Source of the DNA: a bacterium
Lineage (GTDB): Bacteria > RBG-13-61-14 > DATKZS01
DNA: 64,000 nucleotides
Assembly (NCBI GenBank): GCA_963674965.2
Contig: CAXXFL010000001.1
Span: forward strand, 1,120,001 to 1,184,000
Reading direction: 5' to 3'
Shown: positions 53,052-55,360 of the stretch, piece by piece
Numbering within the stretch: position 1 is the stretch's first letter
Layout: each line of letters begins with the position of its first letter
The notes under the pieces: model-generated
Told to the model about the DNA's origin: nothing
Seen by the model: the letters and a program-made list of their open reading frames with translations, nothing else
Databases searched by the model: none
Translations under genes and position numbers: made by a program

Positions 53052-53150
53052 AGACAATCAAATTGGCATAGCGATAGCTTTTATAAAGGTCTTTTCCAAT
53101 CCCTTTTCTTGCCCGAGCGGACTTTATCCGGATCGCGTCTGGAATTTCTC

Positions 53151-53179
53151 TTGACGCGCGAATTATTCCGTACTAAAAG
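53151..53179 (+). promoter_or_regulatory. Putative host sigma70 promoter upstream of the IS insertion site
   Basis: TTGACG-17 nt-TAAAAG. Confidence 0.4.
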
Positions 53180-53222
53180 TATAGCCTCTATCGTGAAAAG
53201 GAGATGGTATGAATGAAGAGTT

Positions 53223-53417
53223 TTGAGGTGGTAAATACTTCAACTAGGTTAGGAATGATCTATTGGAGTAGGCGGGTCGTGGGCTGGATCGTTTTCGTGA
53301 GGCTTATGACCTCGTAAAGGAGATTAGTCAGCCCCGCGACTGGAGCGCCACCGTAAGGCTAGACCTTGTATAGGAGTTTGGCGGCCCCTCAAAGCGTGTC
53401 TACTCCGACCTTAGATC
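53223..53417 (+). ncRNA. Candidate IS110 bridge RNA
   Basis: 5' hairpin TTGAGGT..ACTTCAA; enclosing stem GATCTATTGGAGTAGGC/GTCTACTCCGA..TAGATC; two internal stem-loops containing AAAGGAG (53316-53322) and ATAGGAG (53370-53376). Confidence 0.7.
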
Positions 53418-53445
53418 AAATTTATTTCTAGGGAGGAGTAAGGAA

Positions 53446-54462
53446 ATGGGAAGGTACATTGGAATCGATCTGCACAGGAATTGTTTCACCTCTTGCGTCC
53501 TGGCCGAGAACGGACGGAACTATCTCAAGGACTGGCGTCTCGAGGATTTGGAGAAGTTTTGCTCGACGCTTCGCGAGTCCGACGAGATCGCGGTTGAGGT
53601 CACGGGCAACGTCCGCCTTTTTTACGACGCCGTTCGCGGCCTCGTTTCCCGCGTCGTGGTTGTCAACCCTCGCCAGTTCAAGGTCATCAGCGAGTCGGTC
53701 AACAAAACGGACGGCAACGACGCCAGACGCCTTGCCCTGTTTTTGTCCAAGGGCCTTTTGCCGGAGGTGAGGATGCCGAACAAGGAACACGCTCAGGTTA
53801 AAAGCCTCACTCAAAGCCGGGACAAGCTGGTGAAGCTTCGCACGGCCTTGAAGAACAAGATCAACAACATCTGCTCGGCCCACGGCATCAACCTGAAGAA
53901 GGAATATCTTTCCAGCGAGAAGGGCCTTGAGACGGTGCAGGAGATACCTTTCGACCCCATGGTCAAGACCGAGGTCCGCGTCCTGGTGGAGCAGATTCGG
54001 GGCTTGAACGCCGGGGTCAAGGAGCTTGAGGCCGCCATCAAGGACTCGGGCAATCAGCTTCCCGGTCACAAGAATTTGAAGAGCATAAAGGGTATCGGGG
54101 ACCTTGGCTCGGCCATACTTTTGTCGGTGATCGTTGACGTCAAGGACTTCCCCGACGAGGGCAAGCTGGCCTCCTACTTCGGCATCGTCCCCCGGGTTAG
54201 CAACTCGAACGAGACCAGCCGCTCGGGCCGGATCACGAAGCGGGGCAACAAACTCGGCCGCACTACCCTGGTCCAATGCGCCCTCATCGCCAAGCGTTAC
54301 AGCCCTTATTTGTCGAGCTTCTACGAGCGTATCAAGGCCAGGCGCGGCGCGGGCAAGGCCATCATCGCACTGGCTCGCAAATTTTTGAAGATCATTTACA
54401 TCACTTTACAGGAAAACTTGATTTGGGAGGACTTCCCGAACGGAGTAATAGCGAAAGGCTGA
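53446..54462 (+). CDS. IS110-family DEDD transposase/bridge recombinase
   Basis: YIGIDLH (D), AVEVTG (E), KTDGNDA (DD); C-terminal SIKGIG, LASYFGIVP..SNS (Ser), GRITKRGN and IIALARK motifs. Confidence 0.96.
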   Translation: MGRYIGIDLHRNCFTSCVLAENGRNYLKDWRLEDLEKFCSTLRESDEIAVEVTGNVRLFYDAVRGLVSRVVVVNPRQFKVISESVNKTDGNDARRLALFLSKGLLPEVRMPNKEHAQVKSLTQSRDKLVKLRTALKNKINNICSAHGINLKKEYLSSEKGLETVQEIPFDPMVKTEVRVLVEQIRGLNAGVKELEAAIKDSGNQLPGHKNLKSIKGIGDLGSAILLSVIVDVKDFPDEGKLASYFGIVPRVSNSNETSRSGRITKRGNKLGRTTLVQCALIAKRYSPYLSSFYERIKARRGAGKAIIALARKFLKIIYITLQENLIWEDFPNGVIAKG

Positions 54463-54523
54463 GTTTGTAAAATAATTCAGCTAATTTAAAAGGTTGGGTA
54501 GACAACCATCATAGGAGGAAGCC

Positions 54524-55360
54524 ATGAAAAACCGGCTTACCGAGCTTCTTAAAATAGAGTATCCCATCATCCAGGGCGGGATGATGGAGATTTCCCGCGC
54601 CAGACTGGTGGCGGCGGTATCCAACGCGGGCGGCATGGGTACCCTCGGCCAGAGGATGGACCTTGCCGCTTGGCGGGACGAGGTCAAGAAAACCAGGGAC
54701 CTTACCGATAAACCCTTCGCCATAAACCTTCCCATGCATGTGCCCGACCTCGACAAAAGGCTCGATATCATCAAGGAAGAAGGCGTCAAAGTCGTGGCCA
54801 CCGCCGCCGGAAACCCGGCCCGAGTAATCGGCGAGCTAAAAGATGCCGGAGTCACGGTCATCCACGTGGTGGGGTCGGCGGCCCAGGCCGTCAAGGTCGA
54901 GGCCGCCGGGGTCGAGGCCGTGGTGGCGGAGGGCGGCGAAAGCGGCGGCATGGTGGGCAAAGACAGGGTCTCGACCATCGTCCTTGCCCCCGAGGCCGTT
55001 GACGCGGTCAAGATACCGGTTGTCGCCGCCGGCGGTCTTTGCGACGCAAGAGGACTCGTGGCGGCCCTGGCTCTCGGGGCCCAGGGCGTGCAGCTCGGCA
55101 CCAGGTTTGTCGCCTGCCTCGAGTGCGACGCGCCTCAAAAATGGAAAGACGCCATTATAAAGGCCAGGGACACCGATACTCATATCGTTCCACGAGGCAA
55201 GGCCCAGGCCAGGATGCTCAAGGACGAGGTAGAAAAAGGAGCCATGGCCGGCATCGTTGCGGCCAGGATCGATAAAATCGAAACGGTCGAATCTATCATA
55301 CATGAAATGGTGTCGGAGGCCGAACAAGTTCTTGCCCGCATAAAGGAGCAGATTTTGTAA
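54524..55360 (+). CDS. Nitronate monooxygenase / FabK-like flavin oxidoreductase
   Basis: YPIIQGGM, AAVSNAGG.G, VAEGGESGG, PVVAAGG..D.RG and GVQLGTRF motifs. Confidence 0.9.
   Translation: MKNRLTELLKIEYPIIQGGMMEISRARLVAAVSNAGGMGTLGQRMDLAAWRDEVKKTRDLTDKPFAINLPMHVPDLDKRLDIIKEEGVKVVATAAGNPARVIGELKDAGVTVIHVVGSAAQAVKVEAAGVEAVVAEGGESGGMVGKDRVSTIVLAPEAVDAVKIPVVAAGGLCDARGLVAALALGAQGVQLGTRFVACLECDAPQKWKDAIIKARDTDTHIVPRGKAQARMLKDEVEKGAMAGIVAARIDKIETVESIIHEMVSEAEQVLARIKEQIL

What the first reader, a model, noticed from the sequence alone, without database searches (positions are those of the whole stretch)
53197..54523. IS110 element inserted in a Shine-Dalgarno sequence, with a candidate SD-targeting bridge RNA
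Seen: the left junction is ...CGTGAA-AAGGAG-ATGGTATGAAT and the right junction is TAGACAACCATCAT-AGGAG-GAAGCC-ATG. Removing the element restores ...CGTGAAAAGGAGGAAGCCATG, an intact RBS and start for the 54524 gene. The ~240-nt left end folds into a 5' hairpin plus two stem-loops inside a long closing stem. The first contains AAAGGAG (53316-22), identical to the reconstructed target, with TTTTC on the opposite side complementary to target GAAAA. The second contains ATAGGAG (53370-76), identical to the reconstructed donor junction CATC-ATAGGAG-ATGG. Established: IS110 recombinases use a bridge RNA with separate target- and donor-binding loops. Inference: this element is programmed to hit ribosome-binding sites, an abundant non-coding target, and regenerates the SD after insertion. 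The long matches lie on the 3' side of each loop, which seems to differ from my recollection of the IS621 layout.
Basis: partly seen in the sequence, partly recalled or inferred. Interest (0 to 1): 0.88.

Follow-up and report, generated by a model that had tools for sequence, protein, structure and literature searches.

The report
Insertion sequence that targets ribosome-binding sites
This is a small mobile element whose own guide RNA steers it into the ribosome-binding sites in front of genes, and whose end rebuilds that site, so it illustrates how such an element can use a near-universal target with little apparent damage.

Summary
Window 53204-54517 is a 1,314-bp IS110-family element, present in 10 near-identical copies in this genome. 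Each copy lies directly after a 7-mer Shine-Dalgarno sequence: AAAGGAG in 9 of 10, and ATAGGAG, the end of a preceding copy, in 1. Eight of 9 independent right flanks have ATG 5-8 nt downstream.

The left end encodes a bridge RNA with a 5' hairpin, a closing stem and two internal loops. This structure is supported by covariation in 61 sequences.

The 3' arm of loop 1 equals the left-flank 7-mer in 50 of 61 loci. It covaries with that flank: 12 of 17 non-consensus guides match exactly, against 1.3 expected. The 3' arm of loop 2 equals the last 7 nt of the element in 50 of 50 loci.

The arm order is swapped relative to IS621. It reads like IS621 on the opposite strand, and it matches the order reported for IS1111-type seekRNAs, although here the RNA gene lies upstream of the transposase gene.

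The hypervariable, U-rich 5' arm instead shows weak complementarity to the right flank.

IS110-family insertion between Shine-Dalgarno sequence and start codon was already reported for IS900 and IS901. I rate this a new variant of a known kind, of moderate to high interest.

The parts
53197..53203 (+). Host Shine-Dalgarno 7-mer AAAGGAG. It is the left target half (AAAGG) plus the shared core (AG, 53202-53203).
   Evidence: Nine of 10 copies have AAAGGAG here; the tenth has ATAGGAG, the end of the preceding tandem copy. It is complementary to the 3' tail of the one 16S gene end found.
53204..54517 (+). The mobile element, 1,314 bp, with one copy of the core counted at its right end.
   Evidence: BLAST boundaries of the 10 copies. 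A junction contig in run X3 joins 54512 to 53199. The tandem junction on C7 agrees.
53204..53214 (+). Left-end terminus ATGGTATGAAT, the right half of the donor site. TATGAA (53208-53213), preceded by TG, is a candidate -10 box of a junction promoter.
   Evidence: Nearly invariant in 61 sequences. The promoter is my own reading; the scan tool called no promoter at the tandem junction.
53209..53226 (+). Five-codon mini-ORF (ATG AAT GAA GAG TTT TGA), placed 5 nt behind the host Shine-Dalgarno sequence after insertion.
   Evidence: In 60 of 61 family members the equivalent ATG opens an ORF of only 2-14 codons. Any function is conjecture.
53239..53265 (+). 5' stem-loop of the bridge RNA.
   Evidence: Helices 1-2: 5 of 6 pairs show changes on both sides.
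53266..53405 (+). Closing stem (53266-53273 with 53398-53405) that encloses both binding loops.
   Evidence: Helix 3: 99.8% of cells paired; one pair has a change on both sides.
53278..53338 (+). Target-binding loop. Outer stem 53278-53286 with 53329-53338; 5' arm 53287-53298 (GATCGTTTTCGT); inner hairpin 53299-53313; 3' arm 53316-53322 (AAAGGAG); then AT at 53323-53324, a candidate handshake guide.
   Evidence: for the structure. The 3' arm equals the left flank in 50 of 61 loci, with 0 of 10,000 shuffles as high. The 5' arm has 59 distinct sequences and is 49% U.
53346..53383 (+). Donor-binding loop. Outer stem 53346-53350 with 53379-53383; 5' arm 53351-53354 (CCGT); inner hairpin 53355-53367; 3' arm 53370-53376 (ATAGGAG).
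   Evidence: The 3' arm equals the last 7 nt of the element in 50 of 50 loci. The 5' arm can pair with left-end nt 1-4. The outer stem is 100% paired but shows no change on both sides.
53446..54462 (+). Transposase/recombinase gene, 338 aa, preceded by its own GGGAGGAG.
   Evidence: Pfam DEDD_Tnp_IS110 plus Transposase_20. NCBIfam NF033542 scores 221.5 bits against a cut-off of 140. Distant match to the IS621 and ISCro4 chains.
54463..54517 (+). Right end. TAGACA (54499-54504) is a candidate -35 box, 17 nt from TATGAA across the junction. The terminal ATAGGAG (54511-54517) is the left donor half plus core and acts as a Shine-Dalgarno mimic.
   Evidence: Homologues carry GTAGAC or GTTGAC at the same place.
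54518..55360 (+). Host spacer GAAGCC (54518-54523) and the nitronate-monooxygenase-family gene (54524-55360), whose Shine-Dalgarno sequence was the target.
   Evidence: Orthologous genes in G003, G004 and G012 have an uninterrupted Shine-Dalgarno sequence and ATG.

Best explanation
This is a bridge-RNA-guided IS110-family insertion sequence whose guide is set to the host's Shine-Dalgarno sequence.

What the sequence shows:
- The left end encodes an RNA of about 200 nt with a target-binding loop and a donor-binding loop.
[quoted passage not shown] - The 3' arm of the donor loop (AUAGG + AG) has the sequence of the element's last 7 nt.

Inferred by analogy with IS621:
- The recombinase exchanges strands at the shared AG.
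- The product is host AAAGG-AG-element...ATAGG-AG-host spacer-ATG.
- The arms are in the opposite order from IS621. Read on the other strand the layout becomes IS621-like: core CT; a right target guide AAAGGAG followed by a 2-nt handshake guide AU that matches the first two element bases; and a left target guide, the 5' arm, whose 3' end covers the core.

Inferred with weaker support:
- The U-rich, hypervariable 5' arm pairs loosely with the A-rich spacer after the Shine-Dalgarno sequence.
- The 7-mer is the main determinant of where the element lands.

Inferred from sequence only: because the right end supplies ATAGGAG at the original spacing, the downstream gene keeps a ribosome-binding site.
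For: Copies in this genome:
- There are 10 copies at 99.5-100% identity.
- Nine of 10 follow AAAGGAG. The tenth follows the ATAGGAG of the preceding copy.
- Eight of 9 independent right flanks have ATG 5-8 nt on, and 7 open ORFs of 93-354 aa.
- Five of those ORFs have Pfam families: NMO, ATP-synt_C, ADH_N/ADH_zinc_N, DUF4190 and Cytidylate_kin2.

The left 7-mer comes from the target, not the element:
- The C7 tandem junction and the X3 contig each hold a single ATAGGAG between the right and left ends.
- Orthologues in three relatives have an uninterrupted Shine-Dalgarno sequence and ATG.

Guide and target:
- In 50 of 61 loci the 3' arm equals the flank. Shuffles give a mean of 29.5 and a maximum of 39, with 0 of 10,000 as high.
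- Of the 17 non-AAAGGAG guides, 12 are exact, against a shuffled mean of 1.33, with 0 of 10,000 as high.
- A 50%-identical plasmid copy has guide GAAGGAG-CU, flank GAAGGAG and a left end starting CT.

Guide and donor: 50 of 50 loci match.

Structure.

5' arm and right flank:
- The best-offset score reaches the observed value in 1 of 2,000 shuffles.
- Only one of 9 registers stands out, the one in which the 3'-most loop base pairs with the core G (z = 3.2, 1 of 2,000).
- That register is the best in both loop-length classes.

Protein family.

IS621 layout and handshake guides: passages of PMC11208160 and PMC11208158.
Against: No RNA, circle or recombination was observed directly. No RNA run was listed.

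The 5' arm is weak evidence:
- A fixed-register, position-by-position matrix gave no clear diagonal.
- In this genome the 9 occupied flanks pair no better with the arm in the family register than the 2,029 unoccupied sites do: mean 5.11 against 5.31 (offset -2).
- Other registers gave p of about 0.04-0.08.

The excess of true ribosome-binding sites may be survivorship:
- Occupied sites have ATG in 8 of 9 cases, against 21% of all AAAGGAG sites.
- Of the 388 sites outside crude ORFs, 194 have ATG.

Other weak points:
- The donor 5' arm covaries in only one clade (ATGA with UC.U, 7 of 7). It does not pair in the same register in the plasmid relative.
- In L116 the candidate handshake CU does not match a left end starting GG.
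- The donor-loop handshake dinucleotide does not match right flanks above chance.
- The scan tool called no promoter at the junction.
Confidence: 0.88

Rival explanations
1. Half-site model. Only the 7-mer, through the 3' arm, selects the site. The 5' arm plays no part in target choice. The excess of real ribosome-binding sites among occupied sites is left over after selection removes insertions inside genes.
For: - There is no enrichment of 5'-arm complementarity at the 9 occupied sites in the family register.
- The position matrix has no diagonal.
- Among sites outside crude ORFs, half already have an ATG. Eight of 9 is then only about p = 0.02, and less striking if over-extended ORFs hide true start sites.
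- Half-match insertion is reported for IS621 (abstract of 10.64898/2026.08.31.748434).
Against: - Cognate guide-flank pairs beat shuffled pairs in one register only, and that register is the one that puts the core at the 3' end of the arm, as in IS621.
- Several loci pair in 10 of 11 positions (L041, L079).
- The arm is 49% U opposite flanks that are 40% A.
- The arm keeps a length of 10-11 nt while being almost always different: 59 distinct sequences.
Confidence: 0.3
2. The protein alone recognises AGGAG. The AAAGGAG and ATAGGAG in the RNA loops are there for another reason, for example ribosome binding or control of transposase translation.
For: The GGAG part never varies, so it cannot show covariation. 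The loops do resemble Shine-Dalgarno sequences.
Against: - Positions -7 and -6 of the flank follow the guide: 12 of 16 and 2 of 4 non-A guide bases are matched.
- The 50%-identical relative again matches its own flank.
- The family is documented to be RNA-guided.
Confidence: 0.04
3. The two 7-mers are terminal direct repeats carried by the element, so no Shine-Dalgarno targeting takes place.
For: Both ends of every copy carry A(A/T)AGGAG.
Against: - The tandem junction and the X3 junction contig hold one 7-mer, not two.
- Left 7-mers differ from the guide in 11 of 61 loci, for example TAAGGAG four times behind an AAAGGAG guide.
- In L086 the left flank is another copy's loop sequence.
- Orthologous empty sites carry a Shine-Dalgarno sequence.
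Confidence: 0.02

Closest known systems
IS621 and its bridge RNA (IS110 group; PDB 8wt6; PMC11208160, PMC11208158)
   Same: - Same domain architecture, and matching motifs where HMMER aligns them.
- The RNA is encoded in the left end, upstream of the recombinase gene.
- The target loop comes first and the donor loop second.
- Each loop has two arms that read opposite strands on either side of a 2-nt core.
- Two bases after the core-pairing arm match the other DNA partner, as handshake guides do.
- The two ends, once abutted, could form a promoter.
   Different: - The protein is distant (E 6.6e-13, aligned mainly over the C-terminal half).
- The arm order is swapped. Here the 3' arms carry the sequence of the left target and the left donor.
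- The strict arm is 7 nt and the other arm is degenerate.
- The donor 5' arm is only about 4 nt and does not cover the core.
- A closing stem encloses both loops.
- No Rfam family matched.
IS1111-type elements and their seekRNAs, e.g. ISEc11 (PMC11187229)
   Same: The order of the matches is the same: the stretch complementary to the top strand lies 5' of the one complementary to the bottom strand (passages). The transposase is about 340 aa.
   Different: - Here the RNA gene lies upstream of the transposase gene, not downstream.
- No long subterminal inverted repeat was found. Only ATGGT/ACCAT was seen by eye, and none of the 25 longest inverted pairs links the two ends.
- The subgroup was not resolved by a tree.
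IS900 and IS901 of Mycobacterium avium (IS110 family)
   Same: [quoted passage not shown] My basis is a sentence and the reference titles in PMC2942039. IS900's membership of the IS110 family is stated in PMC8141618.
   Different: - I did not see the original papers (Doran 1997, Inglis 2003) or those sequences.
- The title and PMC8141618 say IS900 exploits host signals for hed, a gene antisense to its transposase. Its transposase would therefore point away from the host gene, whereas here it points the same way (inference).
- I found no paper linking those elements to bridge RNAs (0 papers).

Membership tests
IS110 family (DEDD recombinases) | RuvC-like DEDD domain followed by the Tnp domain. 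| tested here: met
   Pfam PF01548 (2.5e-15) and PF02371 (1.6e-21). NCBIfam NF033542 scores 221.5 bits against a cut-off of 140.
IS110 family (DEDD recombinases) | Catalytic acidic residues and the Tnp-domain serine. | tested here: inconclusive
   The GID, (I/V)E.TG, NKTD..DA and PR...S stretches align with the IS621 chain. D8, E51, D89, D92 and S254 are invariant in 18 homologues. I did not check residue-by-residue equivalence with the published catalytic residues, and the N-terminal alignment is weak (8.3 bits).
IS110 family (DEDD recombinases) | No terminal inverted repeats and no target duplication beyond a short shared core. | tested here: met
   Only the AGGAG shared by target and donor flanks the element.
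Bridge-RNA / seekRNA-guided elements | A structured non-coding RNA with one loop matching the target and one matching the donor. | tested here: met
   Structure. Target arm: 50 of 61, with covariation. Donor arm: 50 of 50.
Bridge-RNA / seekRNA-guided elements | The RNA is made and bound by the recombinase; a circular intermediate has abutted ends. | tested here: inconclusive
   An abutted right-left junction exists in the C7 tandem copy and in an X3 contig. A circle cannot be told from a tandem, and no RNA run was listed.
IS110 subgroup (IS621-like layout) | [quoted passage not shown] | tested here: not met
   Here the 3' arms carry the left-target and left-donor sequence, against the description.
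IS110 subgroup (IS621-like layout) | The bridge RNA is encoded in a long left end. | tested here: met
   The left end runs 242 nt before the start codon and the right end is 55 nt. Some homologues have right ends of 130-420 nt.
IS1111 subgroup | Subterminal inverted repeats of 7-17 bp, and the RNA encoded in the right end. | tested here: not met
   One search lists no end-to-end inverted repeat among the 25 longest pairs. The RNA lies upstream of the transposase gene.
IS1111 subgroup | The top-strand complement lies 5' of the bottom-strand complement in the guide RNA. | tested here: met
   against the passage.
IS900/IS901-like targeting of translation-start signals | Insertion between the Shine-Dalgarno sequence and the start codon. 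| tested here: met
   Eight of 9 sites here. In the family, 46 of 55 right flanks have ATG 5-11 nt after AGGAG.
IS900/IS901-like targeting of translation-start signals | Relatedness of the proteins and the same orientation to the host gene. | not testable with these tools
   No IS900 or IS901 sequence was on hand. Their orientation is inferred from a title and PMC8141618.

The most novel reading that the evidence does not exclude
A widespread clade of bridge-RNA elements has specialised on the translation-start signal as a safe harbour found in every host.
- One short, strict arm is identical to the host's optimal Shine-Dalgarno sequence.
- The other arm is deliberately degenerate: U/G-rich, able to wobble-pair with almost any purine-rich spacer, and often beginning CAU opposite the start codon.
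- The element's end re-creates the Shine-Dalgarno sequence.
- A 2-14-codon ORF at the left end discharges ribosomes that load on the orphaned host Shine-Dalgarno sequence.

Insertions would then be nearly neutral, even in front of the only ATP-synthase c-subunit gene. The recombination site is also inverted relative to the cargo compared with IS621, an architecture described for neither subgroup.
Probability: 0.4. Interest if true: 0.78.

Novelty: new variant of a known kind. Interest (0 to 1): 0.62.

Why it matters
- It gives a sequence-level explanation, with natural covariation, for an old observation: some IS110-family elements land between the Shine-Dalgarno sequence and the start codon.
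- It shows a natural bridge RNA working with a 7-nt strict arm plus a loose arm. That bears on off-target, 'half-match' behaviour of bridge recombinases used for genome editing.
- It documents an arm order that differs from the IS621 model although the RNA lies upstream of the recombinase gene. Design rules taken from IS621 may therefore not transfer to all orthologues.
- Elements that enter operons without removing ribosome-binding sites would also matter for genome annotation and for reading polar effects.

Tried and rejected
- Rfam, E-value mode over 53100-54600: only a chance hit (E 2.1) to an unrelated lncRNA model.
- Genome-contig scan with the single protein: one 29%-identical locus only.
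- Search of the window's phylum: 13 genomes held, and only G000 has the element.
- Empty allele in close relatives: none is available. The nearest orthologous loci are 68-73% identical, so they show an intact Shine-Dalgarno sequence, not the same allele.
- Sequencing runs: no RNA holder was listed. Run X3 does not cover the flanks of this locus, so it gives no empty site.
- Subgroup placement: plasmid records carry only generic product names, and I built no tree.
- Internal control for strand conventions: a second IS family in G000 proved to have its long non-coding region downstream of the transposase gene, so I did not pursue it.
- Handshake dinucleotide of the donor loop against right flank +1/+2: not above shuffles (755 of 5,000 and 3,392 of 5,000).
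- Junction promoter: not called by the scan's rules.
- The RNAalifold consensus pairs part of the donor 3' arm with CGCC instead of forming my outer stem. My outer stem is 100% paired but has no change on both sides, so the choice between them rests on analogy.
- PMC88986 is not held.
- Earlier findings of this scan: nothing to show.
Supplementary Data 2 of PMC11208160, which lists natural target motifs, may already contain this clade.
Full report
WHAT IS THERE

The ORF at 53446-54462 (338 aa) has the two Pfam domains of IS110-family recombinases. It passes NCBI's model for 'IS110 family RNA-guided transposase' at 221.5 bits against a cut-off of 140. It matches the solved IS621 and ISCro4 proteins only distantly (E 6.6e-13 and 1.7e-12).

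The window's own genome has 7 contigs and 6.5 Mb. It holds 10 copies at 99.5-100% identity, plus one 48-nt left-end fragment.

Printing all junctions shows the following.
- Every copy starts ATGGTATGAAT and ends CATCATAGGAG.
- Nine copies are preceded by AAAGGAG.
- The tenth, on C7, is preceded by the ATAGGAG end of the copy in front of it, forming a head-to-tail pair.

The mobile DNA in the window is therefore 53204-54517 (1,314 bp). 53197-53203 is the host 7-mer and 54518-54523 is the host spacer.

Contigs of public runs agree with this.
- In two runs of one sample the element has 7.7-8.9 times the word depth of its flanks.
- In a third run, from another sample of the same study, one contig joins 54512 back to 53199. 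That is the abutted right-left junction with a single ATAGGAG.

THE TARGET IS A REAL RIBOSOME-BINDING SITE

Of 9 independent right flanks, 8 have ATG 5-8 nt after AGGAG.
- Seven of these open ORFs of 93-354 aa.
- One opens only 9 codons.
- The ninth right flank has no start codon at all.

Five of the seven have Pfam families: nitronate monooxygenase, ATP-synthase subunit c, zinc alcohol dehydrogenase, DUF4190/zinc ribbon and a cytidylate-kinase-like family. Two of the six ORFs submitted had no family.

The c-subunit gene is the only homologue that tblastn finds in the genome.

Orthologues of the window's gene in three relatives (68-73% identical DNA) have an uninterrupted Shine-Dalgarno sequence and ATG. 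One reads AAAGGAGGA, like the reconstructed site.

AAAGGAG is complementary to the 3' tail of the one 16S gene end found.

The left 7-mer belongs to the target, not to the element.
- The tandem junction and the X3 contig each carry one 7-mer.
- In metagenome locus L086 the left flank is the loop sequence of another copy.

HOW FAR IS THE CHOICE OF TRUE START SITES DUE TO TARGETING?

The genome has 2,049 AAAGGAG sites on both strands.
- 10 are occupied.
- 10 are the element's own loop.
- Of the other 2,029, 428 (21%) have ATG 4-10 nt on.

Eight of 9 is far above 21%. With a crude ORF map, however, 388 sites lie outside ORFs and 194 of them have ATG. Loss of intragenic insertions by selection could therefore explain much of the excess. 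I treat this as open.

RELATIVES

A protein search found 4,645 relatives among 8,000 scored. The best 120 are 67-100% identical, mostly on contigs of 1.1-2.5 kb.

A metagenome scan with an 18-sequence alignment confirmed 219 of 594 candidate stretches, and 80 loci were kept at 64-85% identity.

Together with the window, 61 loci had at least 12 nt of left flank and a recognisable first loop.
- The other 20 were cut by contig ends or failed my patterns.
- L031, L043, L056, L082 and L091 were dropped for short flanks. Among them L043 has a matching TCAGGAG flank and guide.
- Fifty-two had a first loop and at least 12 nt of right flank.
- L063 was dropped from the right-flank tests because its flank is a duplicated right-end piece.

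STRUCTURE

RNAalifold and my own structure on the 61-sequence alignment give four parts: a 5' hairpin, an 8-bp closing stem, and two modules each made of an outer stem, an internal loop and an inner hairpin.

Counting pairs for my structure:
- 98.0% of 2,377 cells are paired, against 93.6% in shuffles.
- 14 of 39 pairs show changes on both sides.
- 0 of 500 shuffles reach any measure.
- Structures slid by 1-3 columns drop to 30-45% paired.

The outer stem of the second module is 100% paired but shows only one-sided changes. RNAalifold proposes a different pairing there.

GUIDES

1. Target loop, 3' arm (window 53316-53322). It equals the last 7 nt of the left flank in 50 of 61 loci.
 - Shuffles give a mean of 29.5 and a maximum of 39; 0 of 10,000 reach 50.
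 - Seventeen loci have guides other than AAAGGAG (TAAGGAG, GAAGGAG, CAAGGAG, TGAGGAG, AGAGGAG, GGAGGAG, TCAGGAG). Twelve match exactly, against 1.33 expected, with 0 of 10,000 as high.
 - The five misses include L032, where I took the inner of two left-end motifs.
 - Of 44 AAAGGAG guides, 38 match. Four sit behind TAAGGAG.
 - Identity does not extend to position -8 (10 of 61).

2. The two bases after this arm are AU in all 61 loci. The left end starts AT in 59.
 - In a 50%-identical copy on a Tardibacter plasmid the arm reads GAAGGAG-CU, the flank is GAAGGAG and the left end starts CT.
 - This fits the 'handshake guide' described for IS621.
 - In a 53%-identical IMG/VR fragment the arm reads AAAGGAG-CU behind AAAGGAG, but the left end starts GG.
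 - That is one case for and one against outside the main clade.

3. Donor loop, 3' arm (53370-53376). It is ATAGGAG in all 61 loci and equals the element's last 7 nt in all 50 loci where the right end was found.

4. Donor loop, 5' arm (53351-53354). CC(G/A)U can pair with left-end bases 1-4, ATGG, in 45 loci.
 - All 7 elements starting ATGA or ACGA have U at the corresponding arm position.
 - No A-C combination occurs.
 - This is probably one evolutionary event.
 - In the Tardibacter copy the homologous four bases do not pair, although a complementary CCAG lies 3 nt upstream.
 - I rate this assignment as tentative.

5. Target loop, 5' arm (53287-53298). It is the most variable part: 59 distinct sequences of 10 or 11 nt, 49% U and 22% G, opposite right flanks that are 40% A.
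 - With the best of six offsets, cognate arm-flank pairs score 355 against 335.8 ± 5.7 in shuffles (1 of 2,000).
 - Testing 9 single offsets with Watson-Crick pairs only, one stands out. In it the 3'-most loop base is opposite the core G and the following U is opposite the core A (187 against 158.3 ± 9.1, z = 3.2, 1 of 2,000).
 - All other offsets have |z| < 1.
 - The same offset is the best for both 10-nt loops (z = 2.7) and 11-nt loops (z = 1.6).
 - Some loci pair in 10 of 11 positions, including CAU opposite the start codon (L041, L079).
 - Against this, a position-by-position matrix is not convincing on its own.
 - Also against it, the 9 occupied sites in this genome pair no better with the arm in that register than unoccupied sites do (5.11 against 5.31). 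They show only a purine bias at +1 to +3.

COMPARISON WITH THE KNOWN LAYOUT

[quoted passage not shown] Here the arm with the sequence of the left target or left donor is the 3' arm. If target and donor are read on the opposite strand, every feature falls into the IS621 scheme:
- the core becomes CT;
- the 3' arm becomes a 7-nt right guide ending in the core, followed by the handshake pair;
- the 5' arm becomes a left guide ending in the core.

So the chemistry is probably the same, and the recombination site is inverted relative to the cargo.

Siddiquee et al. report that IS1111-type seekRNAs have the top-strand complement 5' of the bottom-strand complement, and that the one IS110-type seekRNA they examined (ISEc21) has the reverse (passages). 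The present clade has the IS1111-type order. Unlike IS1111-type elements, its RNA gene lies upstream of the transposase gene. No long subterminal inverted repeat was seen among the 25 longest of 55 inverted pairs. I could not place the protein in either subgroup.

PRIOR KNOWLEDGE

[quoted passage not shown] It cites Doran 1997 on IS900 and Inglis 2003 on IS901 (I saw the passage and the reference list only). PMC8141618 places IS900 in the IS110 family.

Full-text searches found no paper that links bridge RNAs to ribosome-binding-site targeting.
- 'bridge RNA' with 'Shine-Dalgarno': 8 papers, none on this point judging from the listing and one paper's passages.
- 'IS900' with 'bridge RNA': 0 papers.
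- Two broader searches.

Supplements were closed. Subscription journals are mostly not held.

VERDICT

It is a member of a known, RNA-guided family with a previously reported kind of target. Three things make it a variant worth recording:
- natural covariation pins the Shine-Dalgarno sequence to a specific loop arm;
- the arm order differs from the IS621 model;
- the right end rebuilds the ribosome-binding site.

The role of the 5' arm, the promoter at the junction, the mini-ORF and the neutrality of insertion remain inferences.

Noticed in passing
G000:C7:6724-9358 (loci L005, L010): Two copies lie head to tail, sharing a single ATAGGAG. The second copy used the end of the first as its target, or a circle recombined with a resident copy. 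The same junction appears in a contig of run X3.
   Followed up: partly
G000:C6:1074153-1074200 (locus L011): A solo 48-nt fragment consists of AAAGGAG plus the first 41 nt of the left end, then unrelated sequence. Its upstream flank closely resembles the left flank of the C7 copy, so a larger repeat or a rearrangement is involved.
   Followed up: partly
L086:1-100 and L032:250-330: In L086 a copy is inserted into the DNA that encodes the target-loop arm of another copy; the guide DNA equals its own target. In L032 a second left-end start follows GAAGAAG inside the 5' hairpin of another copy.
   Followed up: no
window 53209-53226: After insertion the host Shine-Dalgarno sequence is followed at 5 nt by ATG and a 5-codon ORF. 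The equivalent ORF is 2-14 codons long in 60 of 61 relatives, and 2-3 codons in 34. It might discharge ribosomes; the same bases also form the candidate -10 box.
   Followed up: partly
G000:C6:276947-278551 (locus L003): One copy sits 5 nt in front of the start codon of the only ATP-synthase c-subunit homologue found in the genome. This suggests that such insertions do not silence the downstream gene.
   Followed up: partly
G000:C6:741680-743272, C6:787623-789215, C2:619176-620768, C2:7287-8879: A second IS110-family element of about 1.6 kb, 26% identical in protein, has 4 copies. Its left end is short and a long non-coding region follows the transposase gene. Two copies lie in members of a repeated sequence of about 0.8 kb that occurs many times on C2 and C6.
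   Followed up: partly
window 53265-53274 and 54494-54504; the same places in the homologues: The 5' strand of the closing stem (GGAGTAGAC in most relatives) recurs as a direct repeat about 11 nt inside the right end (GGAGTAGAC, or GTTGAC in others). The right-end copy overlaps the candidate -35 box. Whether the likeness means anything is unknown.
   Followed up: no
G000:C1, minus strand, near 706,000: The 3' end of the 16S rRNA gene carries the reverse complement of the 7-mer target. Each rRNA operon therefore holds a potential, presumably harmful, site on its antisense strand. This one is unoccupied.
   Followed up: no
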